A stretch of 64,000 nt of DNA from Candidatus Latescibacterota bacterium (GCA_965197905.1 CBDAOB010000005.1:2400001-2464000), one strand, 5' to 3'; counted from the first letter of the stretch, positions 5,358 to 23,567 are shown. Program-made: numbers and translations. The notes: generated by a model not told the origin, from the letters alone.

Positions 5358-6665
5358 CTACCGCTGCGTTCGATATACCTTCCTGGTTCCCACCTGGAGA
5401 AGTCGAACGAAGTGGTAACCGAACGTAAACACCATCCAAATGACCGCCATCTGAAACCCCAAACCCGGATAGCCCACGAGGGCACCGAGGGTGAAGATCA
5501 ACAAGGTGATATTTCTGCGGGCAGCGATCAGGTGGAAGCTGGCGTCCACGGGGCTGAAATCGAAAATCTCTTTCCCAACCAGGCGTTTGAAGCTGCCGCT
5601 GACGACCTTGTCGAGCGCGAAGACGGCTATGCCGGTGACTGTCCATAACAGTTCAGCACCAGACGCCGCGGATCCAACCGAGCCCAGATACCAACCGAAG
5701 GCGGCGTACCACAACGCCAAGCCGGGCGCTGCCACAATGTGTTCGATAGCGCCCATCCTGTCGCTTAATTGAAGCCGGAGCCGGGCGAGCTTGCCGTCTA
5801 TGGAGTCCAGCAGGACACCCATCCACGCCGAAGAGATTCCGGCAGCCAGATGACCGGTAGCAATACATGGAATAGCCCCCCAGATACCGAGGATGGACAT
5901 CGACGTCAGAAGATTGGGCGCAATGGAGGTAAAGCTCAACGGATAGGTGATGCACCGCACAAGGTGGTAATAGCCATATCGCGCAACCGCGTCGATGACC
6001 CCTTTGAAGGTGCGTCGGTACATTAGCCGACCCAGCGGAGCGAGATCCGCGGGTGAGAGGACGCGTTTCATCATCGGTTCCATGGTCAGCCTCAACGCCG
6101 GCACGTAGTGTCCGATGTCACGAGAGGCGATGGTCTCCAGTTCCTTCCCGGGCAGGATAAGTGGCACTCCAGTTGTTGCCGACGAATCATCGTTGACCTC
6201 GTCGATATCTCTGACGATCTGCTTTACCTGTCCGGCAGTCAGATAGGCTGCAGCCTCGGCGTTGCGGCCAATCACTCTGCACCCGGGACCGGACTGCAGC
6301 AGGTGAACCAGTACTCGATCGTCGTAGACCACGTCCCCCTCCAGCAGAACCACATCGTCCTCCATGTGACCAAGCTCCCGAGCCAACGCGGAAAGCGTCT
6401 CGACATCAACGACGATCAGATCGAGGCGGTAGAGATGGTGCAGGTCGCGACGCCACCTGCTCACCTCATGGGCGCTAAACTGGGAAACCCAAATGTGGAA
6501 CCGTTCAACGCCAAGGAGCGCCATTTCGCGAATCTGACGCTCCACGATGTTCATGCCCCAGAGTTGATACCCCGATGCCTTGCGCCTGGCGTCGATGCAG
6601 ACTATTAGCGGACGCTTTTTTTTCATCAAATCGGGAGAGAATTCTGGAGATTCTGATCCATTCAT
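5358..6665 (-). CDS. CDP-alcohol phosphotransferase with N-terminal degenerate nucleotidyltransferase-like domain
   Basis: APNLLT and DSIDGKLAR (DxxDGxxAR) motifs plus TM helices; N-terminal LWGMNIVERQI...LLEGDVVYD. Confidence 0.8.
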   Translation of the reverse strand: MNGSESPEFSPDLMKKKRPLIVCIDARRKASGYQLWGMNIVERQIREMALLGVERFHIWVSQFSAHEVSRWRRDLHHLYRLDLIVVDVETLSALARELGHMEDDVVLLEGDVVYDDRVLVHLLQSGPGCRVIGRNAEAAAYLTAGQVKQIVRDIDEVNDDSSATTGVPLILPGKELETIASRDIGHYVPALRLTMEPMMKRVLSPADLAPLGRLMYRRTFKGVIDAVARYGYYHLVRCITYPLSFTSIAPNLLTSMSILGIWGAIPCIATGHLAAGISSAWMGVLLDSIDGKLARLRLQLSDRMGAIEHIVAAPGLALWYAAFGWYLGSVGSAASGAELLWTVTGIAVFALDKVVSGSFKRLVGKEIFDFSPVDASFHLIAARRNITLLIFTLGALVGYPGLGFQMAVIWMVFTFGYHFVRLLQVGTRKVYRTQR

Positions 6666-6684
6666 ACGGCGGGTTGCAAACGAC

Positions 6685-7395
6685 TCATCGCAACAGAGGC
6701 AGCACCGTCCCCAGGGCCCGCTTGTAGTCGTCCAGAGAATCTATTTCGGTCCAGGGAAGATCCCCCGCTTCCACCGCGTGAAGACAGCTTGCTTCAATCA
6801 GCTTGCCGTACGCAGATGTGGGAAAGGCGTTTTCGTGACCGCTCTCGATCAACAACTCCACCTCCGACCGCAGCGAAGCAGCGCCCTGGGCATCGAATTT
6901 GGCCAGTTGCATACTCTGAGCCATCGCAACCGCTGGATCTAGTGATTTGCTGATCCTCGTAATGCGTTGTTTCGCGTCGGTAGTGACGTTCATCTCGTTC
7001 GCCGTCAGTTGCCTTCGCGAATCTACGGCTACGGCGTTGGCAAACGGGGCATCGAGCAAACGCCTGAGCACCGAATCGTGGAAGAGAATGTCGCAATTGA
7101 AAAGAAACAGGTCCGTGTTCAGCTCCTCGCGGGCTAGATACAGAGAATATATGCTATTGGTCGTCCTGAACTGGTCGTTTTCGACGTACCGCACGCAGGT
7201 CCCCAGGTGCTCCCTGACCTGAGGTGCTTGATACCCGATCACCAGCACGATGTCCTCGACGCCACAGCTGTGCAACGCGTCGATCTGGTGCTGAATGAGA
7301 GGTTTCTCCCCGGCGTTGACCAGGCATTTGGGAAGGTTGTTGGTAAGCGGATGAAGTCGTGAGCCGATTCCGGCGGCCAGAATAAGTGCCCGCAT
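6685..7395 (-). CDS. Phosphocholine/sugar-phosphate cytidylyltransferase family (LicC/IPCT-like)
   Basis: ILAAGIGSRL...PKCL, TNSIYSL, NCDILF, WTEIDSLDD. Confidence 0.85.
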   Translation of the reverse strand: MRALILAAGIGSRLHPLTNNLPKCLVNAGEKPLIQHQIDALHSCGVEDIVLVIGYQAPQVREHLGTCVRYVENDQFRTTNSIYSLYLAREELNTDLFLFNCDILFHDSVLRRLLDAPFANAVAVDSRRQLTANEMNVTTDAKQRITRISKSLDPAVAMAQSMQLAKFDAQGAASLRSEVELLIESGHENAFPTSAYGKLIEASCLHAVEAGDLPWTEIDSLDDYKRALGTVLPLLR

Positions 7396-7631: not shown

Positions 7632-7910
7632 CTAGGCGGAATATTCGGATAGAGAGCGTTCCAGCTCGGAAGGATCAACTTGCTCACCGCTGTTCAGACG
7701 TTCAATGACCGATTCGATCACTTCCTTTGCTGCGTCGGCAGTTTTGTCGCTGCGAATAAAACCATCGAAATAATGGTCACCCGTCATCGCCGCATCTATC
7801 TCTTGATCCTTGTTGTGGTCGTCGAGCTCGGTGAAATAGACCACATTGTAGCGCTGGTTGTAGGAGGACTCGCGGTACACCTCGAACATGATTTTGTCTA
7901 TTGCCGGCAT
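7632..7910 (-). CDS. Small acidic hypothetical protein downstream of the CoA-activase-like gene
   Basis: 92-aa ORF with protein-like composition, co-oriented with the upstream activase genes. Confidence 0.7.
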   Translation of the reverse strand: MPAIDKIMFEVYRESSYNQRYNVVYFTELDDHNKDQEIDAAMTGDHYFDGFIRSDKTADAAKEVIESVIERLNSGEQVDPSELERSLSEYSA

Positions 7911-8051: not shown

Positions 8052-11000
8052 TTACGCGACGAGTTCGGGTTCTGCGTTGGATACTCCGACGCTCTCCATC
8101 ACGCCAGACTCGTACTCTTGGCGCAGCTCTCGCTCGAAGTCCGCCAACTGCTCCTCGACCTGGCTCCGGGTGTCGAGCTTGCGCACCAGGTCTTCCCGGT
8201 AACGGCGCAAGAAATAGTCGATCGTCTCAACCCTGATCCTGATCGACCCCGTCGGTCTGTTCTCGTCTACATCCTTGAAACAGAAATAAGGTGTCCCGGA
8301 ATTCTGCACGGTTTCTTCCACCACCGTGTAGATGGGAGCATCGTGACCGCATTTGAAGCTGGAAAGCTCCAGAGCGACCAAGTTCGGGTGTCGGGCAGTA
8401 AACTTCGCTGCCCACACCTTGCGGTTCGTATTCTCGCTGTAGGAGTTCTTCCACGCGTCGGCGATATCCAGCGGATGGTTGATCACCCCTTCCTCAACGT
8501 CCTCTCCGAACAGGCGCTGGAGGATGTCATCGTCGATGGGAAGGCTGTCCTGGGTCAACACCGGATAACCCAGCTTCTGGAACTCTGCCAGGATTTCGTG
8601 GCATGCCCCCGGGTCGTTGTGGTACGGGCGGGCCAGCAGCACGATGCCGATTCGTTTCTCCGATTCCAGTTGTTCGAGAATCTCGCGACCTTGACGGCGC
8701 TGGTCGGCGTTGTAGCGATCCAACGCTGCGTAACCTTCCTCTATGGCGCGCTCGTTTTCCTTCCTGGACACACCGAGAACGTGTTCAAATTGCTCGAACA
8801 TCTGACGTTCCAGCAATTGCGGCTCGCTCGGATTCACGAACGTGTCTATGAACTGGATACCCATCTCGGCGAAAAGGTCACCCTCTTTCGTGAAGGCCGC
8901 CTTCACTGCTGCCGGCGTCGTGGCAACGGTGGGACAGGCGCGACAATCCTGCGTACCTTTCAGATCAGTCGGCAGGCAGTCAATCATGGGGAAGAAGATG
9001 GCATCCAACGCCGATTTCTTGTGATGGGTGTGTATCAGATTGTGGACGTGCGGGATGCAGAGCTTCGACGGAAAACACGGATCCACCGAACCCCGCTTGG
9101 CTCCTTCCTTGTACATCTCCTCGGAGGTGAAGTCCGAATAGACGAGGTTCCTTCCCTTGACCCCGAGGCTCTCGAAATACGCGCTGAACAGCGGGTTTAA
9201 CGAATACATGTTGAGCACTTTGGGGATCCCGATGCGGATGCTCTCCCGATTTTTCATCTGTTCCACGCGCCGCTTTTGCGTTTTGTTGAGACTAAGCCGT
9301 GGCAATGGGTCGGCCACCTCCGCCGGTTTCATCGACCGAAAGACATCGGTGGCAGCCACCTCCTGAAGGTTCGGGTAGGAGCCCCGATTCTCGTCCATGC
9401 CTTTCTTGATCACCTTCATCGCTTCCACATCCTCCACCAGGCCCCGTTCGCATGAATTGCCGACAATGAGCCGCTTCGTCCCGTCTTCGATCGGAATCTT
9501 GGATTTTCGCGGCGGCTCGACGGCCTCGCTCGCGGATTTTACCTTCACGTCGATGAAGGAGCGCAGACATTTATTCTTGCAGAAGAAACATCTCGTATCC
9601 TCGCTGCGATGCGTCGTGTAGCCGATCTTGCTGACCTCATCCAGGCCGATGAAGGTTGACTCCCGCCCGTTCTCCCAGAGACGGACCGCCTCGATAGCGG
9701 CGCCAATCGCGCCGGATTCGCCGCAGTGTTCGTGAACGATGATCTTCGGTTCCACGTCCTTGGAGTTGAAGCGCGACTCAATGAAATCGACCTGTGACTT
9801 CACGGCGGCCATGTTCTTCTGGGTGCCACCTTGAAGCACGAAATTGGTGCCCAACGCCGCCAGGTTGGGGATCTGCGCCACGTAGAGCCAGATGTTTTTG
9901 GGCAATACGGCGGCGAGCCCCGCCATAATCTCTTCCGCTTTCCAACCCTGTCGCTGGAAATCGACGATATCCGACTGCATGAATACGGCGCAACCATAAC
10001 CGAAGATCGGCATCGTTTCGGCGGTAAACGCGGTATCGGCGTACTCTTCAACCGGAATACCGAATCCGCTCGCCGTCGATTGGAGGAAATAGCCGTTGCC
10101 GGCGGAACATTGGGTGTTGAGCTTGAAATCTTTAACCTGGCGATTCTTCAGGACGATGATTTTGATGTCCTGTCCTCCCACATCGCAAATAACATCGACG
10201 TCTTCGTAGAATTGCAGTGCCGATTCGGTGTGAGCCACCGTTTCCACCAGCGCAACGTCCGCGCTGAGCACGTCCCCAAGGATGTCCTTGGCGTAACCCG
10301 TAGTCCCGACGCCCGCCACTTCTAGCACGGCACCTGGTCCTTCCACCTGCTGTCGCAGTAGGTCGAGGACTTCCATCGTGTCTTCGATCGGATTGCCCTT
10401 GGAAAGCTGATATGTCTTCACAAGGACGTTCCGGTTTTCGTCGAGTAGCACCGCTTTCGTAGAGGTGGATCCACCGTCAAGACCGATAAAACCTTTTACC
10501 ACCTGACCCGGTTCAAAGGTGGCGGGGATGAACTTCTTCTCCTTGAACCGCTCTTTGAATTCCTCGAGCTCATCGGTCGACTTACTAAGGCCACTGCCTC
10601 CGGCCTTGGCCTTGTCCTCCAGGCGGCCGAACTCGATGTAATGTTCCAGTGCTTCGGTACCCTGGTACACGCCGACGTCGGCGTCTTCCTGCTTGCCGAA
10701 CTCGACGGCTCCGATCGCAGCAAAGTACTGAGCGTTGTCGGGCACCTTTATGAGTTCCTTGGGATCGACGCCCGCAGGCAGCGGATATTCTCGTTCCTCC
10801 CAAATCTTTGGAATGTTGTGCTTCCACGCTTCGACCATACCACGGATGTAGGTGTTGGGACCACCAAGTAGCAAGACATGCGGGCGCAGTGTATTACCCC
10901 GTGTCAGCACAGAAAGGTTTTGGCCGACGATAGCCTCGAAGAGAGAGGCCATTAGCTGGTCTGTAGGCACACCCATTTTTTGAAGCGAATTGACGTCCGT

Positions 11001-11546
11001 CTCGGCGAAAACACCGCACTTTCCTGCCACGGGATGCAGCTTTACGTCGTAGTACCCCTGGTCGCACAGCTCTTCGGCAGGAATACGTAGTTTAGCGTTG
11101 ATCTTGTCGATGACGGCACCGGTGCCGCCGGCACATTTGTCGTTCATCGAAGGGATTTTTTGTTTCTTGCCTGTCTCGGGGTCCTCCTTGAAGATGATGA
11201 TCTTGGCGTCCTGCCCTCCGAGCTCGATCACCGACCCCGCCTCTGGATACAGCTTTTCCACGGCGAGCGAAACGGCATTCACCTCCTGGACGAACTTTGC
11301 GCCCAGATGGGGCACGAGATTGTTGCCGCCACTGCCGGTTATGAAAATCCGGTAGTTACCCGCCGGCGCGCCGAGGGTTGCTTCGATCTCCTTCAGCAGC
11401 TCCAGCGTCTTTTCTGGTTGTCTGGTGTCGTGGCGCTGGTAGTCTCTCCAGACGATTTCGTCGGTTGCCGCATCCACCACGACGGCTTTTACTGTCGTGG
11501 AGCCGACGTCCATACCAATTTCCAGCTGCCTGGCTTTGCCGTTCAT
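8052..11546 (-). CDS. BadF/BadG/BcrA/BcrD double-activase plus reductase-domain protein (PlsA/Ger-like)
   Basis: Two ASKHA modules (DVGSTTVK..GGQDAK..CAGGTG..CGVFAE; DGGSTSTK..GGQDIK..CSAGNG..CAVFMQ), CxxCxxxC..C cluster, then a 2-hydroxyacyl-CoA dehydratase-like region (IGIPKVL, PCFPSK, ARPYH, FKCGHD). Confidence 0.85.
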   Translation of the reverse strand: MNGKARQLEIGMDVGSTTVKAVVVDAATDEIVWRDYQRHDTRQPEKTLELLKEIEATLGAPAGNYRIFITGSGGNNLVPHLGAKFVQEVNAVSLAVEKLYPEAGSVIELGGQDAKIIIFKEDPETGKKQKIPSMNDKCAGGTGAVIDKINAKLRIPAEELCDQGYYDVKLHPVAGKCGVFAETDVNSLQKMGVPTDQLMASLFEAIVGQNLSVLTRGNTLRPHVLLLGGPNTYIRGMVEAWKHNIPKIWEEREYPLPAGVDPKELIKVPDNAQYFAAIGAVEFGKQEDADVGVYQGTEALEHYIEFGRLEDKAKAGGSGLSKSTDELEEFKERFKEKKFIPATFEPGQVVKGFIGLDGGSTSTKAVLLDENRNVLVKTYQLSKGNPIEDTMEVLDLLRQQVEGPGAVLEVAGVGTTGYAKDILGDVLSADVALVETVAHTESALQFYEDVDVICDVGGQDIKIIVLKNRQVKDFKLNTQCSAGNGYFLQSTASGFGIPVEEYADTAFTAETMPIFGYGCAVFMQSDIVDFQRQGWKAEEIMAGLAAVLPKNIWLYVAQIPNLAALGTNFVLQGGTQKNMAAVKSQVDFIESRFNSKDVEPKIIVHEHCGESGAIGAAIEAVRLWENGRESTFIGLDEVSKIGYTTHRSEDTRCFFCKNKCLRSFIDVKVKSASEAVEPPRKSKIPIEDGTKRLIVGNSCERGLVEDVEAMKVIKKGMDENRGSYPNLQEVAATDVFRSMKPAEVADPLPRLSLNKTQKRRVEQMKNRESIRIGIPKVLNMYSLNPLFSAYFESLGVKGRNLVYSDFTSEEMYKEGAKRGSVDPCFPSKLCIPHVHNLIHTHHKKSALDAIFFPMIDCLPTDLKGTQDCRACPTVATTPAAVKAAFTKEGDLFAEMGIQFIDTFVNPSEPQLLERQMFEQFEHVLGVSRKENERAIEEGYAALDRYNADQRRQGREILEQLESEKRIGIVLLARPYHNDPGACHEILAEFQKLGYPVLTQDSLPIDDDILQRLFGEDVEEGVINHPLDIADAWKNSYSENTNRKVWAAKFTARHPNLVALELSSFKCGHDAPIYTVVEETVQNSGTPYFCFKDVDENRPTGSIRIRVETIDYFLRRYREDLVRKLDTRSQVEEQLADFERELRQEYESGVMESVGVSNAEPELVA

Positions 11547-11568: not shown

Positions 11569-13416
11569 TCAATTCTGATTGATTACGACAAGCTCTTTGT
11601 TGAGATCGTCAATCTTGGTCGTCGCCGAAGAGGTTGCATCCGCTTCGGCCGCCGAGCTCCGCTCGCGACCCATTAGTTGTGCGATATGCGCCGCGAAGTT
11701 GGCTGCCGTCCCTATGTGTCCCTTGGTGTGAGGCACGACGTACAACCCCTCTTTGAGCTCGGGATGTTCCTCGACATACGCTTCGATTTCAGAGGTCGAT
11801 ATCCCCCACTCATCCAAGGTCCGGGCAAACTCCCCTTTGCACTTGGTCTTGGCTTCGCCAAGAGCCATCTGAACGCGACTGTGGGCATTGATTTCGCCCT
11901 CACCCGAGGTCTCGATTGGCAGGTAGATGATATCCTTAAAATTGTTGATCACCGCTGACTGCGCCCCGTCAGATTGGGTGCTGGGCATGCAACCAAATGG
12001 TTTGAGCCCCAGGACCATATGGGCGAGATCCTTATTGTGGTAGTAGATATTCTTCGCCACCTCCATGTATCCCTCTCCCCCGCCGGCCTTGGTGCTGTAA
12101 AAGGGATCCCCAAGGCGCTGCAGCTCGTACTGATTGCACAAATCGTGGGGGACGTCGGACAGCGCCGTCCGCAGCCGTCGCCACTCGCGGCTGAAAAGCT
12201 TCTCTACCACGGTAAGGAGGACGAGAGGGCGGTAGTCTTTATAGAGACGTTTTGCCTTAGCCCCGAACTGCCACCAGTCCAATTTCTCCCGTAGTTCGTC
12301 GAGCCCGGCTCTATCCTCCATCTTGCGTTTCGACTGGCGAATGACATAGGTCAACCAGGTTCCGATCGGTTCGACCATCACCTGAGCTCCCTCGCGCTGA
12401 AGGAACTCGAACATGTTGAAGTTGCCGTCCCCTTCGGTGGTCTGGGCCCAGAACTCTCCGGTGATCTTAACTATCGGCTTCGGGCGCGTCCGATCGACCT
12501 CCACCTCGTTAAAGCGCGCGCCTGCACGCTGCAGAGCCTGCACGTAGTCCTCACCGAGCAACTGGCGATAAAACTGACCAGCTAGCTTGGCTTTACCCTG
12601 GATGCTTGGAAACTTGGCCAGAAACCTGGCCAATCTGCCGTCGGGAGCGTAAACCGCCCCCTTCTTGAGAACCTCGCGCATCTCTTCTACGCAATCTTTC
12701 AAAACGCGATCGGTATCCCCTTCGTTCACCTCGTAGGGGCGCAACTGGTAGGCAACGTCATTGAGTTGGTCACCGATACAAAAAGCGTTCAACAAACCCA
12801 GGAAGAATTCGGGATTCAGCTCGAGCCCGGCTTCCAACTCGGATTGAGAAAGTCCACCCGTTTGCGAGAACAGCAGGACCCTGAATCCATCGAAACCCGA
12901 ATTGCGCAAAGCCAAGCGGTACTCAGCCTCGTACATACCGAAGCGACAGGGCCCGCAGGCGCCAGCGGTCAGGAACACGTAGTTGTCGATTATCTGCTCG
13001 CGGCTTTCACCATTTCTTTCCAACCCCTGGAGGTATTGAACAAGATTTCCGACGGTGAAATAGGTCGGATTGCACTGGCCGTTGTTGCCATATTCCTTCC
13101 CCAACTGGAAAGCCTCCACGTCGGCCGTAGGAATATTCATGGCCTTGTACCCTAACCCTTCGAGCACTCCGTGGATGAGGCGCTCGTGTTTCCAGGTCAA
13201 ACCACCGTAGAGAATGGTGGTGTGATGCCGCTGGTCTTTGGTGAAAAACCGTTCCTCAGGTTTGGCAAAGTGTTTCCGCTCTTCCTCTTCCAAACCTAGT
13301 TCGGCTTCCAACGAAGCGCGTTTTTCCGCCAGCTTTTCTTGGATCTGCTTTTCCACGCTGCCTGGGTTCGCTGTCGCCGGATTTGCGACATCCAATTTTT
13401 GTTCCATCAAGCTCAC
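11569..13416 (-). CDS. 2-hydroxyacyl-CoA dehydratase-like Fe-S protein (PlsR-like)
   Basis: GQCNP, GACGPCRFGMY, ITGEFW, GGEG, KPFGCMP motifs. Start placed at GTG 13416 after a GGAGG SD. Confidence 0.8.
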   Translation of the reverse strand: MSLMEQKLDVANPATANPGSVEKQIQEKLAEKRASLEAELGLEEEERKHFAKPEERFFTKDQRHHTTILYGGLTWKHERLIHGVLEGLGYKAMNIPTADVEAFQLGKEYGNNGQCNPTYFTVGNLVQYLQGLERNGESREQIIDNYVFLTAGACGPCRFGMYEAEYRLALRNSGFDGFRVLLFSQTGGLSQSELEAGLELNPEFFLGLLNAFCIGDQLNDVAYQLRPYEVNEGDTDRVLKDCVEEMREVLKKGAVYAPDGRLARFLAKFPSIQGKAKLAGQFYRQLLGEDYVQALQRAGARFNEVEVDRTRPKPIVKITGEFWAQTTEGDGNFNMFEFLQREGAQVMVEPIGTWLTYVIRQSKRKMEDRAGLDELREKLDWWQFGAKAKRLYKDYRPLVLLTVVEKLFSREWRRLRTALSDVPHDLCNQYELQRLGDPFYSTKAGGGEGYMEVAKNIYYHNKDLAHMVLGLKPFGCMPSTQSDGAQSAVINNFKDIIYLPIETSGEGEINAHSRVQMALGEAKTKCKGEFARTLDEWGISTSEIEAYVEEHPELKEGLYVVPHTKGHIGTAANFAAHIAQLMGRERSSAAEADATSSATTKIDDLNKELVVINQN

Positions 13417-13479
13417 GAGATTACCTCCTAGAGGGTAGTACAAGGTGTGGTGCGATCGTTTTAGGCTCTCAAGACTTCA

Positions 13480-13499
13480 TAGACTGACATGTCAGTCTA
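13480..13499. promoter_or_regulatory. Perfect 20-bp palindrome, probable TetR operator
   Basis: TAGACTGACATGTCAGTCTA is its own reverse complement; it lies between tetR and the PlsR-like gene and overlaps the -10 box. Confidence 0.75.
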
Positions 13500-14445: not shown

Positions 14446-14474
14446 TTGCCCCAAATACACTTCCTCGCTATATT
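14446..14474 (+). promoter_or_regulatory. Candidate sigma70 promoter for the 14.6-23.6 kb operon
   Basis: TTGCCC-N17-TATATT. Confidence 0.4.
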
Positions 14475-14624: not shown

Positions 14625-15395
14625 TTGTTGAGACTTGCTGCTAAAGCAGTGATTCTGGTTGCAGGCAGAGGTCGTCGACTCCTGCCGCGTACGCAGTCGT
14701 GCCCGAAGTGCCTTCTTCCCATCGGCGAAAGTACGATTCTCGAGCATCAGTTACTGAACCTCTACAACGTGGGCTTCGAAGAGGTGGTCCTCGTGTGTGG
14801 GTTCGGAGCCGACAAGATCCGCCGGGCTGCCGCCGAGTTCGGCGGGGCCATGAATATCGAGATCGTCGTGAATGAACATTTTGCCGTCGGCGACAATCTG
14901 ATATCTCTGTGGGCTGCGCGTCACACCTTGGATGGCAGTTTCGTGTTGCTTAACGGCGACAACCTGTTCCACCCGAGTATCCTGGAAGGCCTGACCAGGT
15001 CGCAGGATCCCTGCTGTCTGATGATCAGTCGGAAAGACTGTTACGACGATGACGACATGAAAGTCCACATGGAGGGAAGTCGGATCGTGAGGATAGGCAA
15101 GGAACTCGATCCTCACACTACCGACGCCGAATCCATCGGAATAATGCGGTTTGCGTCCGACGCAGTTGATGAACTCAAGGAACGACTGGAAGGGATCATC
15201 TCAGGCGACCACGAAACCGACTGCTGCTATCTCACCGCGGTGCAAGCAATGATAAACACCGGTTACCCGGTCAACTTTCGCGATGCAGAAGACCTGCCCT
15301 GGGCAGATGTCGATACCTTTGAAGACTTGAGTTTTGCCAGGACGCACATGCCCATGTTTTCCCAGTCGACAAGGAACCGGCTCGAACCGGTATAG
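14625..15395 (+). CDS. Phosphocholine/sugar-phosphate cytidylyltransferase family (second copy)
   Basis: ILVAGRGRRL...PKCLL, DNLISLW, NGDNLF, DDDMKV, ESIGI, WADVDTFED. Confidence 0.85.
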   Translation: MLRLAAKAVILVAGRGRRLLPRTQSCPKCLLPIGESTILEHQLLNLYNVGFEEVVLVCGFGADKIRRAAAEFGGAMNIEIVVNEHFAVGDNLISLWAARHTLDGSFVLLNGDNLFHPSILEGLTRSQDPCCLMISRKDCYDDDDMKVHMEGSRIVRIGKELDPHTTDAESIGIMRFASDAVDELKERLEGIISGDHETDCCYLTAVQAMINTGYPVNFRDAEDLPWADVDTFEDLSFARTHMPMFSQSTRNRLEPV

Positions 15396-15403: not shown

Positions 15404-16813
15404 ATGGTGAAGAAAGGCGTTCTCGTTTTCGAGAACACGGGAGCCGGGTTGAGAGCCATGAAACAGCGAGTCGCCGGCTTGACGCTTCTGGAGCGCGGCA
15501 TTCGGACGATGGCCAGGGCTGGCCTCCGATCGATCGTCGTGCTTTGTCCGTCAGGGGGACAGACCAAGCTCAGTCCGGTGACCCGAAAGTTGGAGATCGA
15601 GATCGATTTCGTTGCCTGGGAATCCCCTGAGGACGCCATGGATTCTTCGGAAGGTCATCTTCTCCTTTGGGGGGACCACGTGCACCATCACTCCTCGCTG
15701 TGCGAATTGATGGAAACGGAACTCGGTCCGCACGAGTTGATCGTCCATGCCGGACAAACGCACCAAGCTGTAAACCTGCCGGTCGGTTTGGACCAACTCC
15801 AGAGAGGGGCTGATACAGCTGCTGAAGACGGTTTGGCGAGCACCGGCGCTTTTCTTTGTGCAGCCGGGGTTCTCACTCCCGGCGCCATCTCATCCAGATG
15901 CTGCGACTTGGAAGCCCTCATTAGGCAGGGTATCGACGGGTTGCGATTCGAACTGCGCCGGTCGGAGCAGGAACTCTGGCGCCGGGTGGTCGATCGGTCG
16001 AGCAGTCGCAGCGCCAAGAACATGCTGTTCAGCCAAGTGACCAAATCTACGAGCGGGTTCGTATCGCGCAATATCAATGCCCGCATCTCTATCCCTACTA
16101 GCAAACTGCTGGTCGAGACCGGACTCTCTCCCCATGCAGTGACCGTCCTGTTCGTGCTCACGACCGGTTTGGCGGCAGCGTATTTTGTCACCTTGGCGGA
16201 AGATTACAAGATGCTGCTTCTTTCCGGTGTGTTGTGGCAGTTCGCCGCCATCTTCGATCGTTGCGACGGCGAGATTGCCAGAGTTCGCCTCTGCGAATCC
16301 AAATTTGGCGCCTGGTTCGATACCGTGACGGACAACATTGCTTATATCGCAGCCTATGTAGGACTACTGATCGGCGTACAGCGCCTCTACCCCGACCATC
16401 ACTACTACATGGGGCTGGGAGTTTCTGCCGTGATCGCCCTGTTCCTCTATCTTGGCGTGGCTTACAGGTACGCGCTAAAAACGGGCTCCGGGAGTTTGCA
16501 ACATTACTTGAGGGACTCTATCCAGAACGTGCCGGCGGACGAGAAGATTTTCGTTTACAAGATCATGGAGAGGTACGGATTTATCGCCAAGCGCGACTTC
16601 TTCTCATTCTTCTTTTTTATCACCGCCGCAACGAATATGATTCAAGCAACCTACTGGTTCGTGATCATTGGCCAACATCTCCTGGTGGTGGCGGTTCTCG
16701 TTTCGCAGCGGAAGGTCCATGAGACCTACCAGCGCAATCGCATTGCCAAAGACGACGGCGTTCCGGCTCTCGAGCCGGTGCCGATCACGCCCGGATCTGA
16801 GAAGGCGCGATGA
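15404..16813 (+). CDS. CDP-alcohol phosphotransferase with N-terminal degenerate nucleotidyltransferase-like domain (second copy)
   Basis: VAGLTLLERGI N-terminus; SRNINARIS, SPHAVT, DRCDGEIAR...GAWFDTVTD; multiple TM helices. Confidence 0.85.
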   Translation: MVKKGVLVFENTGAGLRAMKQRVAGLTLLERGIRTMARAGLRSIVVLCPSGGQTKLSPVTRKLEIEIDFVAWESPEDAMDSSEGHLLLWGDHVHHHSSLCELMETELGPHELIVHAGQTHQAVNLPVGLDQLQRGADTAAEDGLASTGAFLCAAGVLTPGAISSRCCDLEALIRQGIDGLRFELRRSEQELWRRVVDRSSSRSAKNMLFSQVTKSTSGFVSRNINARISIPTSKLLVETGLSPHAVTVLFVLTTGLAAAYFVTLAEDYKMLLLSGVLWQFAAIFDRCDGEIARVRLCESKFGAWFDTVTDNIAYIAAYVGLLIGVQRLYPDHHYYMGLGVSAVIALFLYLGVAYRYALKTGSGSLQHYLRDSIQNVPADEKIFVYKIMERYGFIAKRDFFSFFFFITAATNMIQATYWFVIIGQHLLVVAVLVSQRKVHETYQRNRIAKDDGVPALEPVPITPGSEKAR

Positions 16814-17873: not shown

Positions 17874-19220
17874 ATGCACAAAGTCACGATTGTTCTCTAT
17901 TGTGCTGCCGCAGGCGTACTCTGCGCAAGCCCATCCCAATCCCAATCATCAATCCACAGGTATAGCCTTTCGGAACTCATCGAAAGAGCGACGAGTCACA
18001 ATTCCGAGATCGGGGAAGCGAAGTGGCGGCTCCGCAAGGCCGAAGCCCGGCAAAGACAGGCGTCGGCAAGCCGGATTTTGCCTCGGCTGCGGCTGTCCAG
18101 CGAAACGGGACTCGTACCGGAAGCGGAAGGTGACATCTTTAATCCACCATCCGATACGACCGGGGTCAGACCCCTTGGCCCTTTCGTGCGAGCAGAGCTC
18201 GAATTCGCCCAACCGATCTATGCATTTGGCAAGTTTGGCAACCTCATACGAGCCGTAGAAGCAGGGGTGGCGGTGGAGGAGGCCGCATTTGATGAGACTT
18301 CGCTGGCTGTAGCGTTCGAAACCAAAGAGTTGTACTACAGCCTTTTGTTGGCGCTCGATTTGCAAGATCTGGTCGATGGTCTGATCGACCAGCTCGAGGA
18401 AAGACGGCTGGAGTTCGAGGACAATCCAGATGTCACCCTCGCCAATGAGTACAAGCTGCGCCTGGCCCTCGTCGAGCTCAAACATCAGGCCGCAGAAGCC
18501 GGAGCCAACGCGGATCTCGCCCGCGCCGCTCTGGCGTGGAAGGTGGGTGTGGCAAAGGCCGATTCGCTGCAACTGGCGGATGAGTGGCTTGAACCGGAGG
18601 TTCCTATTGTGCCGTCTTTGAATGACCTGGTGTCTCAAGCGTTGGCCACGCGTCCCGATTGGCGCAGATTACAGGCCGGCATGAACGCCAAGAGAGCCCT
18701 GCGCAACGCCGCACAAAATGCCTATTTCCCCGAGATCTTTGTGGGGGGCGGCATTCGTTATGCCGTCGCTCCGCATCGAACCGACCAGCACAGCCCATTC
18801 GTCGTGGACAATTTCAATTACTTCAATGGGGGGGTTTTCCTGGGGCTCCGGCAGTCTTTCGAATGGGCGATGTTGCGCGGCGAGTTGGACCAAGCGCGGG
18901 CGGAGTATCGCGAATTGGTGGAAAAGGAAAGAGGAGCCAGCCAAGGCGTCAGGGTCGACGTCAAACGCGCCTACTCCCGATACACGATAGCCGAGACCGG
19001 ATTCGAGGTCGCCCGGGAGCGACGCAAGCTCACCCGCGAGTGGTTGCGACTCGCAAAGGAGGAGCAGGAATTCGACCCCGGGCAGGTGAAGGAACTGGTA
19101 ACCGCTTACGAGGCGTGGGCTCAGCAGGAACGGGATTACCTGGAGGCGATTTACGCCTTCAACATAAACCTGGCAAAACTCGAGAAAACGGTGGGCGGCA
19201 CCAGCCTGGTCAAACGATGA
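17874..19220 (+). CDS. TolC family outer-membrane efflux protein
   Basis: Signal peptide, two OEP-like repeats (LPRLRL..QPIY; ALATRPDW..YFPEI..LRQSF), C-terminal LAKLEKTVG. Confidence 0.85.
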   Translation: MHKVTIVLYCAAAGVLCASPSQSQSSIHRYSLSELIERATSHNSEIGEAKWRLRKAEARQRQASASRILPRLRLSSETGLVPEAEGDIFNPPSDTTGVRPLGPFVRAELEFAQPIYAFGKFGNLIRAVEAGVAVEEAAFDETSLAVAFETKELYYSLLLALDLQDLVDGLIDQLEERRLEFEDNPDVTLANEYKLRLALVELKHQAAEAGANADLARAALAWKVGVAKADSLQLADEWLEPEVPIVPSLNDLVSQALATRPDWRRLQAGMNAKRALRNAAQNAYFPEIFVGGGIRYAVAPHRTDQHSPFVVDNFNYFNGGVFLGLRQSFEWAMLRGELDQARAEYRELVEKERGASQGVRVDVKRAYSRYTIAETGFEVARERRKLTREWLRLAKEEQEFDPGQVKELVTAYEAWAQQERDYLEAIYAFNINLAKLEKTVGGTSLVKR

Positions 19221-20560
19221 GTGTGGCGATTGCGATTCTGACCATCATCCTCGCGCTGATGGGGACGGCGGAGATCCGGGGACAGCAGCAGCTAGCGGTC
19301 GAGGGAGAGAGTTTTCTCCTCCGGGAAGTCCGCCTGCTAAATGGGCACCTCGAAGCTCCAAAGGAGAATCTGCGCCAGGATCTGGTCGCCATGGCTGACG
19401 GTCTGATCGACTATCAGCACCTTACCGATGCAAGCTTCGACGGGTACTGCGAGTCGAGCCTGAGCAGCTATCGCAACACCAAAGGCGAGAGCGAGCTGGA
19501 GATCCTGATCGGCAACTGCCAAAAAGAGCTGTCAGCGGCATATCGCAACCGCCTCCTCGCTGATTTCGCCCGATTCGTTCGTTACAATCTGGGAGGCGCG
19601 ATCCAGATACTGGCGTGCGACTTGCGTAGCGATTCGGGGATCGTGCAGGCCAAGCTCAGCTCCTCCCACGGCGAGTTCGATTTGGAGATCGCGCTCCGCC
19701 GCAGCGGTGATCTGTGGACCATCGGCGATCTGTCCATAGACAAAACCCTGCTCAGCAAACATTATCGAAAGCTCGGAAAATCCGTAGAGAAGAAGAACTA
19801 TTCGCTGCCGGTCATGCTGGCCAGACTGGAAGACCGGAACCACATCGTCCTGGAGGATTTTTCGTCCAGCTCGGTTGGCGAGCTGCCAACAGGATGGGGA
19901 TGGCGAGATCGGGATGACAACAAACCGAAGCCTTACAAGGTGGGCGCCTCCAAGGACCGTCATTTCCTCGCCGCAAAAGACTCCGGTGGATCGGTCATCC
20001 TGCTGAAATTTGCGCACTGGAATCCTCGTGAGTTCCCCATACTGACCTGGTGCTGGAGGGTCAATGCCTTGCCCCCGGGTGGAGATGAGCGCTACGACAA
20101 CACCAACGACAGCGCGGCGGGTCTATACGTCAACTTCTCCACAAACTGGATCGGTTTACCGAAGTACATCAAGTACGTCTGGAGCAGCACGCTGCCCGTC
20201 GGTACGGTAAACCGTCGCAACCGGATCGCGCGCCCGTGGTTCTTCGTCGTCGAGAGCGGGGAAGACAACCTCGGCCAATGGATCTTCGAAAAAACCGACC
20301 TCTCAAGGGACTACCAGCGGATCTATTCAGAGCACCCCCCGAAGCGCACGATCGGCCTTGGCATTCTTACAGACGCGAACTCTACGGCGTCGGTGGCCCA
20401 CGCAGATTACGCCGATTTCCGCGCCTGGACGCGCGAAGCCGATGTCGATGGCTCCATCTACGATCACTGCAAGTGTGATTCTGGAGGAAGGTCAACCTTG
20501 GAACACCGCGATTACCGCGACGACGTATCCCTAGTAACAAAGGAGGAGAGGGAATGGTAA
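19217..20560 (+). CDS. Exported MlaC-like plus DUF3047 fusion protein
   Basis: Start at ATG 19217 (ATGA overlap with the tolC stop), signal peptide, MlaC-like end (WTIGDLSID..HYRK..MLARLE), then DUF3047-like FPILTWCWRV..YVWSS..VVESG..ILTDAN. Confidence 0.65.
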   Translation: MSVAIAILTIILALMGTAEIRGQQQLAVEGESFLLREVRLLNGHLEAPKENLRQDLVAMADGLIDYQHLTDASFDGYCESSLSSYRNTKGESELEILIGNCQKELSAAYRNRLLADFARFVRYNLGGAIQILACDLRSDSGIVQAKLSSSHGEFDLEIALRRSGDLWTIGDLSIDKTLLSKHYRKLGKSVEKKNYSLPVMLARLEDRNHIVLEDFSSSSVGELPTGWGWRDRDDNKPKPYKVGASKDRHFLAAKDSGGSVILLKFAHWNPREFPILTWCWRVNALPPGGDERYDNTNDSAAGLYVNFSTNWIGLPKYIKYVWSSTLPVGTVNRRNRIARPWFFVVESGEDNLGQWIFEKTDLSRDYQRIYSEHPPKRTIGLGILTDANSTASVAHADYADFRAWTREADVDGSIYDHCKCDSGGRSTLEHRDYRDDVSLVTKEEREW

Positions 20561-21174
20561 CACCCCTCTGGATCGCCTCCGCGCTTTGTCTTTGTTACAT
20601 GTCTCCCATCGAGACTCGGGCCGAGGAACCGATCGTGAATTCGCCCATACACGTCCTCAAAGAACACGATCGGGCGGTGCAGGCTATCCTCGACAGCACC
20701 GGTGGAGACTCGTTGAATTTAGCGGTGCGCCAAAGAATCAAGAATCACATCAATGCCACCTTCGATTTTAAGGAGCTGAGCAAACTGTCACTGGGCCCAC
20801 ACTGGATGGAACGCAGTTCGGCGGAACAGCAGCACTTCGTGTCCGTTTTTAGCGGGATCATTCAAGAGCAGAACTTTGAAAGTTTCCTGCGCTACTATCG
20901 CGAGAGCGAGATCTCCTATCACGACGAACGGATTGACAGCACTTTCGCCACCGTAAACGCTCTCGTGCCGCTGAAAGCCGAGCAGGTCGAAATCACCTAC
21001 CATCTTCATCGCGTCGACGGAGAGTGGAGGGTATACGACCTGTTGATCGATGGTTCCAGCACCGCTGCTGGACACCGGCGAAGACACATTCGCTACATTG
21101 CCAAGTACTCCTATGAACGACTCGTCGAACAGCTGGAGAAACAGTTGGCAAGACAAACGGGCGGCAACAGCTGA
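20554..21174 (+). CDS. MlaC/Ttg2D (HpnM-like) periplasmic lipid-binding protein
   Basis: FDFKELSKLSLGPHW..QQHFVSVF..ITYHLHRVDGEWRVYDLLIDG; signal peptide. Confidence 0.85.
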   Translation: MVTPLWIASALCLCYMSPIETRAEEPIVNSPIHVLKEHDRAVQAILDSTGGDSLNLAVRQRIKNHINATFDFKELSKLSLGPHWMERSSAEQQHFVSVFSGIIQEQNFESFLRYYRESEISYHDERIDSTFATVNALVPLKAEQVEITYHLHRVDGEWRVYDLLIDGSSTAAGHRRRHIRYIAKYSYERLVEQLEKQLARQTGGNS

Positions 21175-21182
21175 ATCCATCG

Positions 21183-23567
21183 ATGCGATTTAGTTATCAA
21201 CGGCTGGTTCACTACATATACCACCACTATCTCAGCATAATTGGAGTCGCAACCTTGCTGACCTTGGTTGCAGTCTATTTTGCCGGACAGCTCCGCGTCA
21301 AAAGCAACATCGTAAACTTGCTGCCCGCCGACCACGTAAGCGTCAGCGAGCTGACCAAAATACAGGAACGCGTCGGAGGCATCGGACCGTTGATGATCGT
21401 TATCACCGGAGACGATATCGACAAGTCGTTGGACTTCATGCTTGCCCTTGCGGACTCGTTGGAACACAACGCCTACATCAGCTCCGTCAGCCGTGGCAAG
21501 GATACGCAATTTTGGAGCAAGAACCGGCTGCTATATATGGACATGGAGGACCTGGAGACCATTCACTCTAGGGTTGCATATTTCATAGAGGAAGAAAAGG
21601 TCCGCCGCTCACCCCTGTACTTTGCCTTCGAAGACGAAGAAGAGAACGTGCTGGATTTTTCCGACCTGGAAGAGAAGTACCAGGGAACGGGCACCTCAAA
21701 GCGGCAGGACAACTATTATCTCACGAAAGAGGGAAACGGGGTCATTCTTAGACTTTACCCCGGCGGAATCATCACCGACGTCTCGTTTAATCAGCTGCTT
21801 TTCGAAAGCCTCGACCGGACCATCGCAGCCATCGAGCCGAAAAGCTATCACCCCAGCATCGAATACCGCTACAAGGGAAGCTTCAAGAACAGTTCGTACG
21901 AATACAAGCTGGTTATTGACGATCTGAAGTCGACGGCGGTTTACGGATTGCTGGGGGTTCTGGTTCTCATATCGGTCTACTTTCGCCAGGTTTTTGCTTC
22001 CCTCTTCATCGTCTTTCCGTTGCTGATGGGCGTTGCGTGGACCTTCGGCCTCACCTACCTGGTCATCGAAAATCTGAATCTCGTTACGGTCGGATTGTTC
22101 GCCATACTATTCGGGTTGGGCATCGACTTCGGGATTCACATCTTCGCCCGCTACCGCGAGGCACGCCGCCGGGGCGTCGACATTGAAGCAGCGCTGAGCT
22201 TGACGGTTGTCCACACCGGAAGCACGCTTACCACAACGGCCATAACGACTTCGGGCGCTTTTTTCTCGCTAATGGTAACCGAGTTCAAAGGATTCTCCGA
22301 ATTCGGTTTCATCGTGGGTTGCGGGATACTCTTTTCTCTCGCGGCCATGTTGGTCGTATGTCCCGCCTTCATCATACTCGCCGAGCGTCTCCGAGTCATC
22401 AAATTGAGCCAGAGCAACGTTCCGGCACACCTGTTCAGGCGCGGCAAATATCCGTTCGCACAACTGACCGTATTGTTGGCCGCAATCGCCACCGGCTATT
22501 CGATATACCACGTGTCCAGCCTCGAGTTCGAGTACGATTTCAGCAAGCTGAAACCTGCCAAACCCGTGCAAGAGCCAGGAAGTCTGCCGGAATCGTTGAA
22601 GGAAACTCGGTCGCCGGCTATCGTGCTGACGGAGAGTTTTGAGGAAGCTTCGGAAGTGGTTGCAACCGTGAAGAAAATCAAGGCCATCAACGGAGATTCT
22701 TCGACGGTCAGCTCGGTGAGGAGCGTCTATTCCGCGCTGCCCAGACGCCAGCCGGAGAAACTCGATCTCATCGATCGGATAGAGACGCTAATCGACGAAT
22801 CCCAGAAGTATCTGGATCAAGTCCAGAAGGACAAGGTCGACTCGCTGAGCCCGTACCTGGAGGTAACACAGCTCGAGCTCAGCGACCTCCCGGAGGACAT
22901 TACCAAACAGTTCTCCAGCAAAAATGGCGAACTTCTTGATATCGTCATGATCAACTCCGCCGTGCCTCTGAAAGACGGCCGCCAGGCTATACGTTTTGCC
23001 GAGGAGGTGAAGAAGATCAACACCCCCTCCGGCAGGGTGTATCACGCATCGAGCGCCCACATAATCTTCGCCGAGATGCTGGAGATCATGCTCGATGACA
23101 GCGCTGTAGCGATCGTGCTCACGTTATTGGTCGTTTCGCTGGTATTGTTCATAGATCTGAGAAACCTTACGCAAACCCTTCTCGTTCTTACGCCGCTGCT
23201 CACAGCCTTGGTGCTGATTACCGGATTCATGTATCTGTTCGACATAAAGTTGAATCTGTACAACATGGTAGCCTTTCCGACAGTCATCGGCATGGGTATC
23301 GACAACGGGGTCCATATTTTTCACAGATACCGGGAAGAAGGAGCGGGTTCGTTGCGTCTCGTCCTTAGAACCACGGGTGTGGCCTTGCTGGCCACAACCA
23401 TGACGACGATGGTCGGATTCTCCGGTCTGATTCCCGCAAATCACCCTGCTCTGCCTTCGATCGGTATACTCTCGCTCATCGGCCTTGGATGCTGTTTCGT
23501 AACGGCCGTTACGCTGCTGCCTGCACTGTTGCAACTACGCGAGAACCGCAACCGTCCACGCGAATAA
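21183..23567 (+). CDS. MMPL/RND family lipid transporter (HpnN-like)
   Basis: Two RND halves with GLGIDFGIH and GMGIDNGVH motifs. Confidence 0.9.
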   Translation: MRFSYQRLVHYIYHHYLSIIGVATLLTLVAVYFAGQLRVKSNIVNLLPADHVSVSELTKIQERVGGIGPLMIVITGDDIDKSLDFMLALADSLEHNAYISSVSRGKDTQFWSKNRLLYMDMEDLETIHSRVAYFIEEEKVRRSPLYFAFEDEEENVLDFSDLEEKYQGTGTSKRQDNYYLTKEGNGVILRLYPGGIITDVSFNQLLFESLDRTIAAIEPKSYHPSIEYRYKGSFKNSSYEYKLVIDDLKSTAVYGLLGVLVLISVYFRQVFASLFIVFPLLMGVAWTFGLTYLVIENLNLVTVGLFAILFGLGIDFGIHIFARYREARRRGVDIEAALSLTVVHTGSTLTTTAITTSGAFFSLMVTEFKGFSEFGFIVGCGILFSLAAMLVVCPAFIILAERLRVIKLSQSNVPAHLFRRGKYPFAQLTVLLAAIATGYSIYHVSSLEFEYDFSKLKPAKPVQEPGSLPESLKETRSPAIVLTESFEEASEVVATVKKIKAINGDSSTVSSVRSVYSALPRRQPEKLDLIDRIETLIDESQKYLDQVQKDKVDSLSPYLEVTQLELSDLPEDITKQFSSKNGELLDIVMINSAVPLKDGRQAIRFAEEVKKINTPSGRVYHASSAHIIFAEMLEIMLDDSAVAIVLTLLVVSLVLFIDLRNLTQTLLVLTPLLTALVLITGFMYLFDIKLNLYNMVAFPTVIGMGIDNGVHIFHRYREEGAGSLRLVLRTTGVALLATTMTTMVGFSGLIPANHPALPSIGILSLIGLGCCFVTAVTLLPALLQLRENRNRPRE

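What the first reader, a model, noticed from the sequence alone, without database searches (positions are those of the whole stretch)
5358..23567. Divergent lipid locus: PlsA/PlsR(Ger)-like ester reduction, head-group transfer and trans-envelope export
Seen: one arm has TetR, a dehydratase-like Fe-S protein, a double-ASKHA activase, a 92-aa ORF, a cytidylyltransferase and a CDP-alcohol phosphotransferase. The other arm has a second cytidylyltransferase and phosphotransferase, a flippase-like protein, TolC, MlaC-DUF3047, MlaC and MMPL. Known: this activase/dehydratase architecture is that of anaerobic plasmalogen synthase PlsA/PlsR and glycerol ester reductase Ger; HpnL/HpnM/HpnN-type proteins are linked to lipid trafficking. 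Inference: a complete pathway making an ether or vinyl-ether lipid with an unusual phospho-head group and delivering it to or across the outer membrane.
Basis: partly seen in the sequence, partly recalled or inferred. Interest (0 to 1): 0.85.

Follow-up and report, generated by a model that had tools for sequence, protein, structure and literature searches.

The report
Ether-lipid cassette inserted into export locus
In one small lineage of uncultured Latescibacterota bacteria, a horizontally moved gene cassette that likely turns ester membrane lipids into ether lipids sits inside an older, family-wide gene cluster that likely adds an inositol-type head group to a lipid and carries it to the outer membrane, so the region is two lipid modules side by side and not one conserved pathway.

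Summary
The activase and its partner are a split PlsA/PlsR/Ger-type reductase: B-B-D domains, 11 cysteines shared with PlsA-type proteins, grouping away from catabolic activases. They belong to the untested subfamily of Solibacter Acid_0922/0921. The link to the other genes is not conserved. The head-group/export arm is family-wide (CAPT2 40 of 41 relatives, MMPL 72 of 76), the reductase occurs in 3 of 132 class genomes and is linked in 2; of 154 fetched reductase loci only 1, the same genus, has these neighbours. A third genome of the genus keeps a decayed TetR, the operator and a cut orf92, with plsR/plsA deleted. The cassette and a palindromic operator are shared with Poribacteria. The host cluster is IPCT/DIPPS-like, co-occurs with inositol-phosphate synthase (40 of 41), and the genome gave no hopanoid or sphingolipid synthase. 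Best reading: a low-oxygen ether-lipid cassette captured in an inositol-lipid export locus; an exported ether-inositol lipid is possible but unproven. This scan noted both modules before, separately, on other DNA.

The parts
5358..6665 (-). CAPT1: CDP-alcohol phosphotransferase-like protein with a degenerate N-terminal nucleotidyltransferase-like domain; catalytic motif lacks the last aspartate (D3 to E, D4 lost). Host locus, left arm.
   Evidence: PF01066 21.6 bits; motif in 12 aligned copies; 22 of 24 same-family relatives; fused to a CAPT2 orthologue in G030
6685..7395 (-). NT1: LicC/IPCT-type cytidylyltransferase. Host locus, left arm.
   Evidence: PF12804; best PDB hit LicC 1jyk over residues 2-109; divergent from NT2 in relatives
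7632..7910 (-). orf92: conserved 92-aa accessory protein of the reductase cassette, function unknown
   Evidence: follows plsA in 22 of 80 and 39 of 74 loci; model pLDDT 83.7; no clear fold match
8052..11546 (-). PlsA/Ger-like activase-reductase, B-B-D architecture
   Evidence: PF01869 x2 + PF09989; 11 Cys shared with six PlsA-type proteins, one position uncertain in one of them; trees
11569..13443 (-). PlsR-like Fe-S subunit (likely start GTG at 13416, 615 aa)
   Evidence: aligns with PlsR-type proteins E 4e-11 and 1e-21, Cys 124/166/485 kept; no alignment to HgdAB-like or YjiM
13480..13499 (.). 20-bp perfect palindrome just upstream of plsR; likely TetR operator
   Evidence: single exact copy in the genome; kept in G002, G001 and three Poribacteria loci
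13604..14242 (-). TetR-family regulator of the cassette (likely start near 14203)
   Evidence: PF00440; upstream of plsR in 5 of 80 loci, 52-60% identical in Poribacteria; pseudogene in G001
14437..14483 (.). conserved block in the divergent intergenic region, holding a sigma-70-like site for the right arm
   Evidence: nearly invariant in G000, G002, G001; consensus match 14446-14474, though promoter hits overall were at chance level
14625..15395 (+). NT2: IPCT-like cytidylyltransferase, likely makes CDP-inositol or a related CDP-polyol
   Evidence: full-length hits to inositol-1-phosphate cytidylyltransferases 2xme/4mnd and to 4jd0; NF041135 66 bits, below cut-off
15404..16813 (+). CAPT2: DIPPS/AF2299-like CDP-alcohol phosphotransferase with intact motif and a degenerate N-terminal transferase domain
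   Evidence: PDB 4o6m, 4mnd; 40 of 41 relatives; orthologues in other families keep the N-terminal nucleotide-binding motif, NF041135 255-291 bits
16810..17871 (+). HpnL-like / LPG-synthase TM flippase-like protein
   Evidence: PF03706; TIGR03476 139 bits, cut-off 195.65
17874..19220 (+). TolC-like outer membrane factor; no adaptor protein gene in the cluster
   Evidence: PF02321; conserved position
19217..20560 (+). signal peptide-like start + MlaC-like domain + DUF3047
20554..21174 (+). MlaC/HpnM-like periplasmic lipid shuttle
   Evidence: PF05494; TIGR03481 55.6 bits, cut-off 160.1
21183..23567 (+). MMPL/HpnN-like RND lipid transporter
   Evidence: PF03176; TIGR03480 305 bits, cut-off 752; 72 of 76 family genomes

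Best explanation
The region is a composite: a TetR-plsR-plsA-orf92 cassette, shared with Poribacteria and likely moved horizontally, lies between the two arms of a family-wide cluster; the cassette likely reduces ester bonds of existing membrane glycerolipids to ether bonds under low oxygen, and the host cluster likely builds an inositol-phosphate lipid and moves it to the outer membrane. Cassette (architecture shown, chemistry inferred from PlsA/PlsR and Ger): TetR binds the palindrome before plsR; the two ASKHA domains of PlsA use ATP to push low-potential electrons from their [4Fe-4S] clusters to the clusters of the DUF2229 domain and PlsR, which reduce the sn-1 ester to an alkyl or vinyl ether; which of the two cannot be told from sequence. 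Host cluster (conservation shown, chemistry inferred): inositol-phosphate synthase elsewhere in the genome supplies the precursor, NT2 makes CDP-inositol, CAPT2 transfers phospho-inositol to a glycerolipid acceptor, CAPT1 with its incomplete motif is a partner or a second, different step, the HpnL-like protein flips the product, and MMPL, two MlaC-type shuttles and the TolC-like protein deliver it outward. The modules are independent; where both are present the reductase would act on bulk lipids, and the exported lipid may then be partly ether-linked.
For: Composite origin: CAPT2 40 of 41, CAPT1 24 of 41, MMPL 72 of 76, but plsR 3 of 132 class genomes and PF09989 4 of 41. None of 20 family loci around CAPT2 has plsR/plsA; 12 have CAPT1 diverging on the same locus and 4 more NT1, some with only a few hundred bases between NT1 and NT2. 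G001 deletion scar. Head-group/export neighbours in 1 of 80 GTDB loci and 0 of 74 metagenome loci. PlsA sister to Poribacteria (81-82% identity, support 92); one clade of the five Latescibacterota copies rejected, p-AU 1.9e-62. Lipid role of the cassette: same domain coordinates as S. usitatus Acid_0922/0921; same BBD architecture as the Ger homologue listed for the ether producer E. aggregans; neighbours elsewhere are other lipid genes: Tes-like 18 of 74 and 5 strong of 80, squalene/hopanoid genes in 5-9 of 80, HAD phosphatase and a flippase-like gene in Poribacteria. Inositol reading; no SHC, Spt, PEP mutase or choline kinase over cut-off in G000. Weak: five RNA contigs of 157-251 nt with 0-4 differences on plsA/plsR in one sponge metatranscriptome, none on a 19.9-kb control stretch.
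Against: No member of this reductase subfamily has been assayed in the papers read; it is only about 28-32% identical to PlsA-type proteins, and the characterised C. perfringens and T. maritima sequences were not in my trees. The cassette is co-oriented with NT1-CAPT1 and its operator survives in G001, which fits some regulatory coupling. P0002 (PlsR) and P0127 (CAPT2) both list a longest contig of 46,403 bases and both branch near the window's copies, so the link may be older than the genus; this was not verified. NT2 and CAPT2 score far below the IPCT/DIPPS cut-off and ino1 is not in the cluster, so the head group is not established. The surveys hold the best 80 of 564 and 74 of 471 confirmed relatives, and only 53 of 80 and 24 of 74 loci are 15 kb or longer. 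GC3 of the cassette (0.62-0.71) equals that of its flanks, so composition gives no sign of transfer, and the direction of transfer is open (4 of 101 Poribacteria-phylum genomes).
Confidence: 0.6

Rival explanations
1. One reading: in this lineage the genes have become one co-regulated pathway that makes a mono- or dialkyl (or vinyl) ether glycerophosphoinositol-type lipid and exports it, as a mesophilic counterpart of the Rhodothermus IPCT/BEPIS route.
For: Insertion in line with NT1-CAPT1; intact in G000 and G002 at 85-98% identity; possible second lineage on one contig; BEPIS uses CDP-inositol and a dialkylether acceptor (PMC4587543, passage); in Poribacteria the cassette is again next to a phosphatase and a flippase-like gene.
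Against: The host cluster is intact in about 70 family genomes without this reductase and in G001 after its deletion. The same NT1-NT2 site holds unrelated inserts in other genomes: polysaccharide flippase, GT4 glycosyltransferases. No ElbD-size fusion was found in G000 as a second ether source.
Confidence: 0.2
2. The reductase cassette acts on a soluble acyl-CoA or aromatic substrate (BCR/HAD-type catabolism) and its place among lipid genes is an accident of an insertion hotspot.
For: Family ancestry is BCR/HAD; automated names say 'activator of 2-hydroxyglutaryl-CoA dehydratase'; a deep, untested subfamily; TetR's best model is FadR-like, below cut-off.
Against: B-B-D fusion and the PlsR-type partner are not found in the catabolic enzymes compared; no CoA transferase or acyl-CoA dehydrogenase is among the recurrent neighbour clusters annotated, while Tes and hopanoid genes are.
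Confidence: 0.1
3. The cytidylyltransferase/phosphotransferase pairs do not make a glycerolipid head group but a soluble phosphodiester (di-myo-inositol-phosphate type) or a phospho-decoration of a surface glycan or glycolipid; the transporters serve another cargo.
For: Closest characterised enzymes make solutes (4mnd, 2xme). CAPT1 lies beside GT4 and polysaccharide-flippase genes in several relatives (L114, L117-L121) and lacks the last catalytic aspartate.
Against: CAPT2 is in one gene string with flippase-like, TolC, MlaC and MMPL genes in families f1, f2 and f4, with overlapping start/stop codons here.
Confidence: 0.1

Closest known systems
PlsA/PlsR plasmalogen synthase (C. perfringens CPE1195/CPE1194) and glycerol ester reductase Ger (T. 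maritima Tmari_0479, D. alkenivorans)
   Same: Two PF01869 activation domains plus PF09989, a PlsR-type partner, conserved Fe-S cysteines (PMC13159169 passages, PMC12838417 passages).
   Different: Gene order plsR then plsA, extra orf92, own TetR and operator; about 28-32% identity to PlsA-type proteins; product (alkyl or vinyl ether) cannot be assigned from sequence (PMC13274423 passage).
Acidobacterial PlsAR-like pair, S. usitatus Acid_0922/Acid_0921 and E. aggregans WP_064742671.1; 'ger architecture 2' hits in sponge Latescibacterota MAGs
   Same: Same lengths and domain coordinates (1188/589 aa; PF09989 771-1003), BBD architecture; 68-69% identity to Solibacter MAG copies. Ger-like hits in sponge Latescibacterota are already reported (bioRxiv 10.64898/2026.06.23.733905 passages).
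   Different: Those are homology-based proposals, not assays; no Tes-like gene lies beside this copy or was found in G000; the neighbourhood here was not mentioned in the passages read.
IPCT/DIPPS (A. fulgidus, PDB 4mnd, 2xme), AF2299, Rhodothermus IPCT + BEPIS, Bacteroidetes alternative inositol-lipid cluster
   Same: Cytidylyltransferase + CDP-alcohol phosphotransferase logic; inositol-phosphate synthase in the genome; an LPG-synthase-like gene nearby in the Bacteroidetes clusters (PMC9246714, PMC4587543 passages).
   Different: ino1 not in the cluster; scores below NF041135 cut-off; second pair with a degenerate motif; coupled to TolC/MlaC/MMPL. BEPIS itself could not be aligned.
HpnN-HpnM-HpnS(-HpnL) hopanoid trafficking and BstABC sterol transport
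   Same: MMPL-type pump, MlaC-type shuttle, HpnL-like membrane protein (PMC12324291, PMC11713862 passages).
   Different: No squalene-hopene cyclase found in G000; a TolC-like protein in place of the MlaA-like HpnS or BstC; all Hpn models below cut-off.

Membership tests
PlsA/PlsR/Ger ester reductases | two BcrAD_BadFG domains followed by DUF2229 (BBD) | tested here: met
PlsA/PlsR/Ger ester reductases | Fe-S cysteines in both activation domains, linker, D domain and PlsR | tested here: met
   C138, 177, 480, 519, 653, 656, 660, 699, 824, 871, 1066 match six PlsA-type proteins from named records (C871 uncertain in one); PlsR C124, C166, C485 match. The comparison set are homologues, not the assayed enzymes.
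PlsA/PlsR/Ger ester reductases | PlsR-type reduction/dehydration partner | tested here: met
   E 4e-11 and 1e-21 to PlsR-type proteins; PF06050 itself is not hit, as for Acid_0921 in the figure text
PlsA/PlsR/Ger ester reductases | clade with the assayed enzymes | tested here: inconclusive
PlsA/PlsR/Ger ester reductases | converts a glycerolipid ester to a vinyl or alkyl ether | not testable with these tools
   needs expression and lipid analysis
Catabolic 2-hydroxyacyl-CoA dehydratase / benzoyl-CoA reductase | single-domain activase with HgdAB/BcrBC-type (PF06050) subunits | tested here: not met
IPCT/DIPPS/BEPIS | complete CDP-alcohol phosphotransferase motif (CAPT2) | tested here: met
IPCT/DIPPS/BEPIS | complete CDP-alcohol phosphotransferase motif (CAPT1) | tested here: not met
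   D3 is E and D4 is absent in the 10 close copies; the 2 distant copies have D3, and one of them D4; the G030 fusion half has E3 and D4
IPCT/DIPPS/BEPIS | score above NF041135 cut-off (580 bits) | tested here: not met
   66 (NT2), 87 (CAPT2), 255-291 (fused orthologues); model is a Thermococcales equivalog
IPCT/DIPPS/BEPIS | inositol-phosphate synthase in the same operon | tested here: not met
   present in 40 of 41 genomes, in G000 on another contig
IPCT/DIPPS/BEPIS | uses CDP-inositol and a (di)alkylglycerol acceptor | not testable with these tools
   needs assay
HpnL/HpnM/HpnN hopanoid trafficking | model cut-offs and a squalene-hopene cyclase in the genome | tested here: not met
   (genome 91% complete)
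Bacterial sphingolipid head-group cluster | serine palmitoyltransferase in the genome | tested here: not met
   the two AONS-family genes are a BioF in a biotin operon and a Kbl above cut-off; genome 91% complete
LicA/LicC phosphocholine route | choline kinase in the genome | tested here: not met
   no PF01633 match over cut-off; LicC similarity of NT1 covers residues 2-109 only

The most novel reading that the evidence does not exclude
A sponge-associated Latescibacterota lineage has wired a horizontally acquired, oxygen-sensitive ester reductase into its inositol-lipid locus and so makes an ether-linked phosphoinositol lipid that an adaptor-less MMPL-MlaC-TolC system delivers to the outer membrane, with CAPT1 as a catalytically altered partner of CAPT2: a compact, expressible gene set for an undescribed bacterial ether lipid and an undescribed trans-envelope route.
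Probability: 0.22. Interest if true: 0.8.

Novelty: new variant of a known kind. Interest (0 to 1): 0.48.

Why it matters
The producers and enzymes of bacterial ether lipids in sponges and soils are open questions, and this widespread reductase subfamily (the one proposed for brGDGT precursors in Acidobacteria) has no assay in the papers read. This locus offers a natural with/without comparison inside one genus (G000 and G002 against G001), a defined operator, and a third conserved gene (orf92) to include in expression tests. The host cluster points to an inositol-type envelope lipid and a TolC-terminated lipid export route in a class with no hopanoid synthase in the genome tested.

Tried and rejected
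orf92: ESM Atlas gave only unnamed clusters under 0.9; Foldseek no match at E 0.001 and VIA-align best Z 4.1 to DegV/FakB fatty-acid-binding proteins, too weak to use; no homologous stretch in the PlsA-type loci L143-L152 by HMM. Complex prediction of orf92 with PlsR 60-598 and PlsA 755-1122: no answer, score 0.00; not evidence either way. RNA run X1 gave no near-identical contig on TetR, orf92, NT1, CAPT1 or the right arm; one shallow run of contigs, chosen through this stretch, so no conclusion on co-transcription. Promoter and terminator scans were at chance level. GC and GC3 show no foreign signal. Hopanoid, sphingolipid, phosphonate, phosphocholine and ElbD readings: marker genes not found over cut-off in G000; PF02913 hits were not examined for an AGPS orthologue. 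No Tes-like gene in G000. Plasmid search with CAPT2 gave only weak hits. Whether P0002 and P0127 lie on one contig stayed unchecked. The careful tree did not finish; the quick tree was used. Literature: searches (open-licence papers only) showed no description of this joint arrangement; Jackson 2021 and Jorge 2015 were seen only as cited by other papers; supplements of the bioRxiv sponge preprint, which list its Ger hits, are closed and may bear on novelty.

Full report
Observation. Two divergent arms leave a 380-bp intergenic region at 14.24-14.62 kb. Left: TetR, a 624-aa ORF without family hit, a 1164-aa protein with two BcrAD_BadFG domains and DUF2229, a 92-aa ORF, a cytidylyltransferase (NT1) and a phosphotransferase (CAPT1). 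Right: NT2, CAPT2, a flippase-like protein, TolC-like protein, MlaC-like+DUF3047, MlaC and MMPL.

The reductase. The 1164-aa protein has the BBD layout that PMC13159169 (passages) gives as the conserved core of Ger in alkyl-ether producers. Eleven cysteines align with six PlsA-type proteins taken from named plasmid records. The 624-aa protein aligns with PlsR-type sequences (E 4e-11, 1e-21) with three cysteines kept and does not align with an Azoarcus dehydratase subunit or E. coli YjiM. In a domain tree each ASKHA domain groups with the matching domain of PlsA-architecture proteins (SH-aLRT 99 and 95), apart from YjiL and the Azoarcus activase (quick tree, long-branch warning; the assayed enzymes were not available). 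Lengths and domain coordinates match S. usitatus Acid_0922/Acid_0921, proposed by homology as the ether-forming step for brGDGT precursors (PMC10087280 passages and supplement); the ether producer E. aggregans has a BBD homologue (supplement table of PMC13159169). PMC13274423 (passage) states that Ger and PlsA cannot be told apart from sequence. A 2026 preprint (introduction and passages) already reports Ger-like BBD hits in sponge Latescibacterota MAGs.

What travels with the reductase. In the best 80 of 564 confirmed GTDB loci, plsA follows in 74, orf92 in 22, TetR precedes in 5, and the head-group/export genes appear in 1, the same genus (53 loci are 15 kb or longer). In 74 metagenome loci, orf92 is in 39 and the head-group/export genes in 0 (24 are 15 kb or longer). 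Recurrent neighbours are other lipid genes: Tes-like radical SAM (18 of 74; 5 strong of 80), squalene/hopanoid genes (HpnC-like 9, SHC 5 of 80), and in Poribacteria a HAD phosphatase between plsR and plsA and a flippase-like gene after orf92. This supports a membrane-lipid substrate but not a tie to this head-group cluster.

What travels with the head-group/export genes. CAPT2 is in 40 of 41 relatives, CAPT1 in 24 of 41 (22 of 24 in the family), the MMPL orthologue in 72 of 76 family genomes. The plsR subfamily is in 3 of 132 class genomes: G000, G002 and G021, the last on another contig than its CAPT2. Twenty family loci around CAPT2 show the older order UvrA-(cytochrome c)-CAPT1-NT1 / NT2-CAPT2-flippase-TolC-MlaC_DUF3047-MlaC-MMPL-TPR/ASPIC-PBP; none has plsR or plsA; 12 carry CAPT1 and 4 more NT1 on the diverging side; 4 are rearranged. 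The NT1-NT2 gap is a few hundred bases in several and holds polysaccharide-flippase or GT4 genes in others. The site is an insertion hotspot.

History. G001, of the same genus, keeps a TetR with a stop and frameshifts, a perfect palindrome, and a 5'-cut orf92, with plsR and plsA removed and all host genes in place. The palindrome at 13480-13499 has one exact copy in G000 and recurs before plsR in G002 and three Poribacteria loci: a likely TetR operator. PlsA is 81-82% identical to Poribacteria copies and sister to them (support 92); one clade of the five Latescibacterota copies is rejected (p-AU 1.9e-62). The cassette is also patchy in that phylum (4 of 101), so the direction is open, and GC3 is the same as in the flanks. 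Against a strictly genus-level event: P0002 and P0127 list the same longest-contig length and branch near the window's PlsR and CAPT2; unverified.

Head group and cargo. CAPT2 has a complete motif and resembles AF2299 and A. fulgidus IPCT/DIPPS. Its orthologues in three other families keep the N-terminal nucleotide-binding motif and score 255-291 bits on the IPCT/DIPPS model, under the 580 cut-off; in this family that domain is degenerate and NT2, with full-length similarity to inositol-1-phosphate cytidylyltransferases, stands in front. Inositol-phosphate synthase is in 40 of 41 genomes, unlinked in G000. G000 (91% complete) gave no squalene-hopene cyclase, serine palmitoyltransferase, PEP mutase or choline kinase over cut-off, and has four further ordinary phosphotransferases. 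A CDP-inositol route like Rhodothermus IPCT/BEPIS or the Bacteroidetes alternative cluster (PMC4587543 and PMC9246714 passages) is the best guess. CAPT1 lacks the last catalytic aspartate in its 10 close copies and is fused to a CAPT2 orthologue in one 934-aa frame in G030, so the two likely work together; it also sits beside glycosyltransferases in several relatives. The transporters resemble the HpnN-HpnM-HpnL set and BstA (PMC12324291, PMC11713862 passages) but are below their cut-offs and end in a TolC-like protein.

Expression. One metatranscriptome recorded as sponge metagenome holds five contigs of 157-251 nt with 0-4 differences on plsA and plsR, one across their junction; a 19.9-kb control stretch of the window gave none. 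This is a weak hint of transcription. Three DNA data sets cover all 30 bins of the region.

Verdict. Observation confirmed, interpretation partly supported. Shown: gene content, family assignment by architecture, composite distribution, deletion scar, shared palindrome. Inferred: ester-to-ether chemistry, inositol head group, outward transport. Because heterologous PlsA and Ger convert the host's own lipids, the reductase needs no dedicated head-group enzymes, and the host cluster plainly exists without it. An exported ether-inositol lipid in this lineage remains possible (about 0.2). Earlier notes of this scan describe each module on other genomes; none shown covers their junction. Interest 0.48; new variant of a known kind.

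Noticed in passing
L114:9255-12059 (-), G030: 934-aa single frame: nucleotidyltransferase + CAPT2-like + CAPT1-like, next to a polysaccharide-flippase-like gene; a three-part fusion.
   Followed up: partly
L099:14940-16877, L100:7328-9286: About 650-aa proteins with a C-terminal MlaC domain at the place of the MlaC_DUF3047 and MlaC genes; apparently a fusion of the two.
   Followed up: partly
L013:12082-12570, L014:12054-12800, L012-L014 after orf92: Poribacteria versions of the cassette carry a HAD-IB phosphatase between plsR and plsA (shortened in L013) and a flippase-like gene after orf92 (then an Lgt-like gene in L012).
   Followed up: partly
L155, L158, L165, L202, L214, L033, L042, L070 and others: plsR-plsA-orf92 is often directly followed by a Tes-like radical SAM gene in soil and sediment loci.
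   Followed up: partly
G000 C5:2028896-2030560: Stand-alone fatty acyl reductase-like protein (NAD_binding_4 + Sterile, 554 aa) upstream of an Lgt-like gene; a possible fatty-alcohol source; no ElbD-size fusion found.
   Followed up: partly
G000 C3:724974-725954 and C5:5997-6977: Two flippase-like hits with identical scores on different contigs; possible duplication or assembly overlap.
   Followed up: no
window 7480-7500 and 23665-23740: Short stretches with much higher contig depth in DNA runs; the second has tRNA-like loose ends, the first looks like a repeated element in the orf92-NT1 gap.
   Followed up: no
window 1730-4550 (-): A divergent UvrA-like gene directly downstream of CAPT1, conserved next to this locus across the family; a cytochrome c-like gene lies between them in many relatives and in G001.
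   Followed up: no
window 23776-26985 (+): TPR + FG-GAP + ASPIC/UnbV protein conserved right after MMPL in most family loci; may belong to the export cluster.
   Followed up: no
L143 (Brevibacillus laterosporus record): A Firmicutes copy of the same reductase subfamily (49% identity), a cultured host in which the subfamily could be tested.
   Followed up: partly
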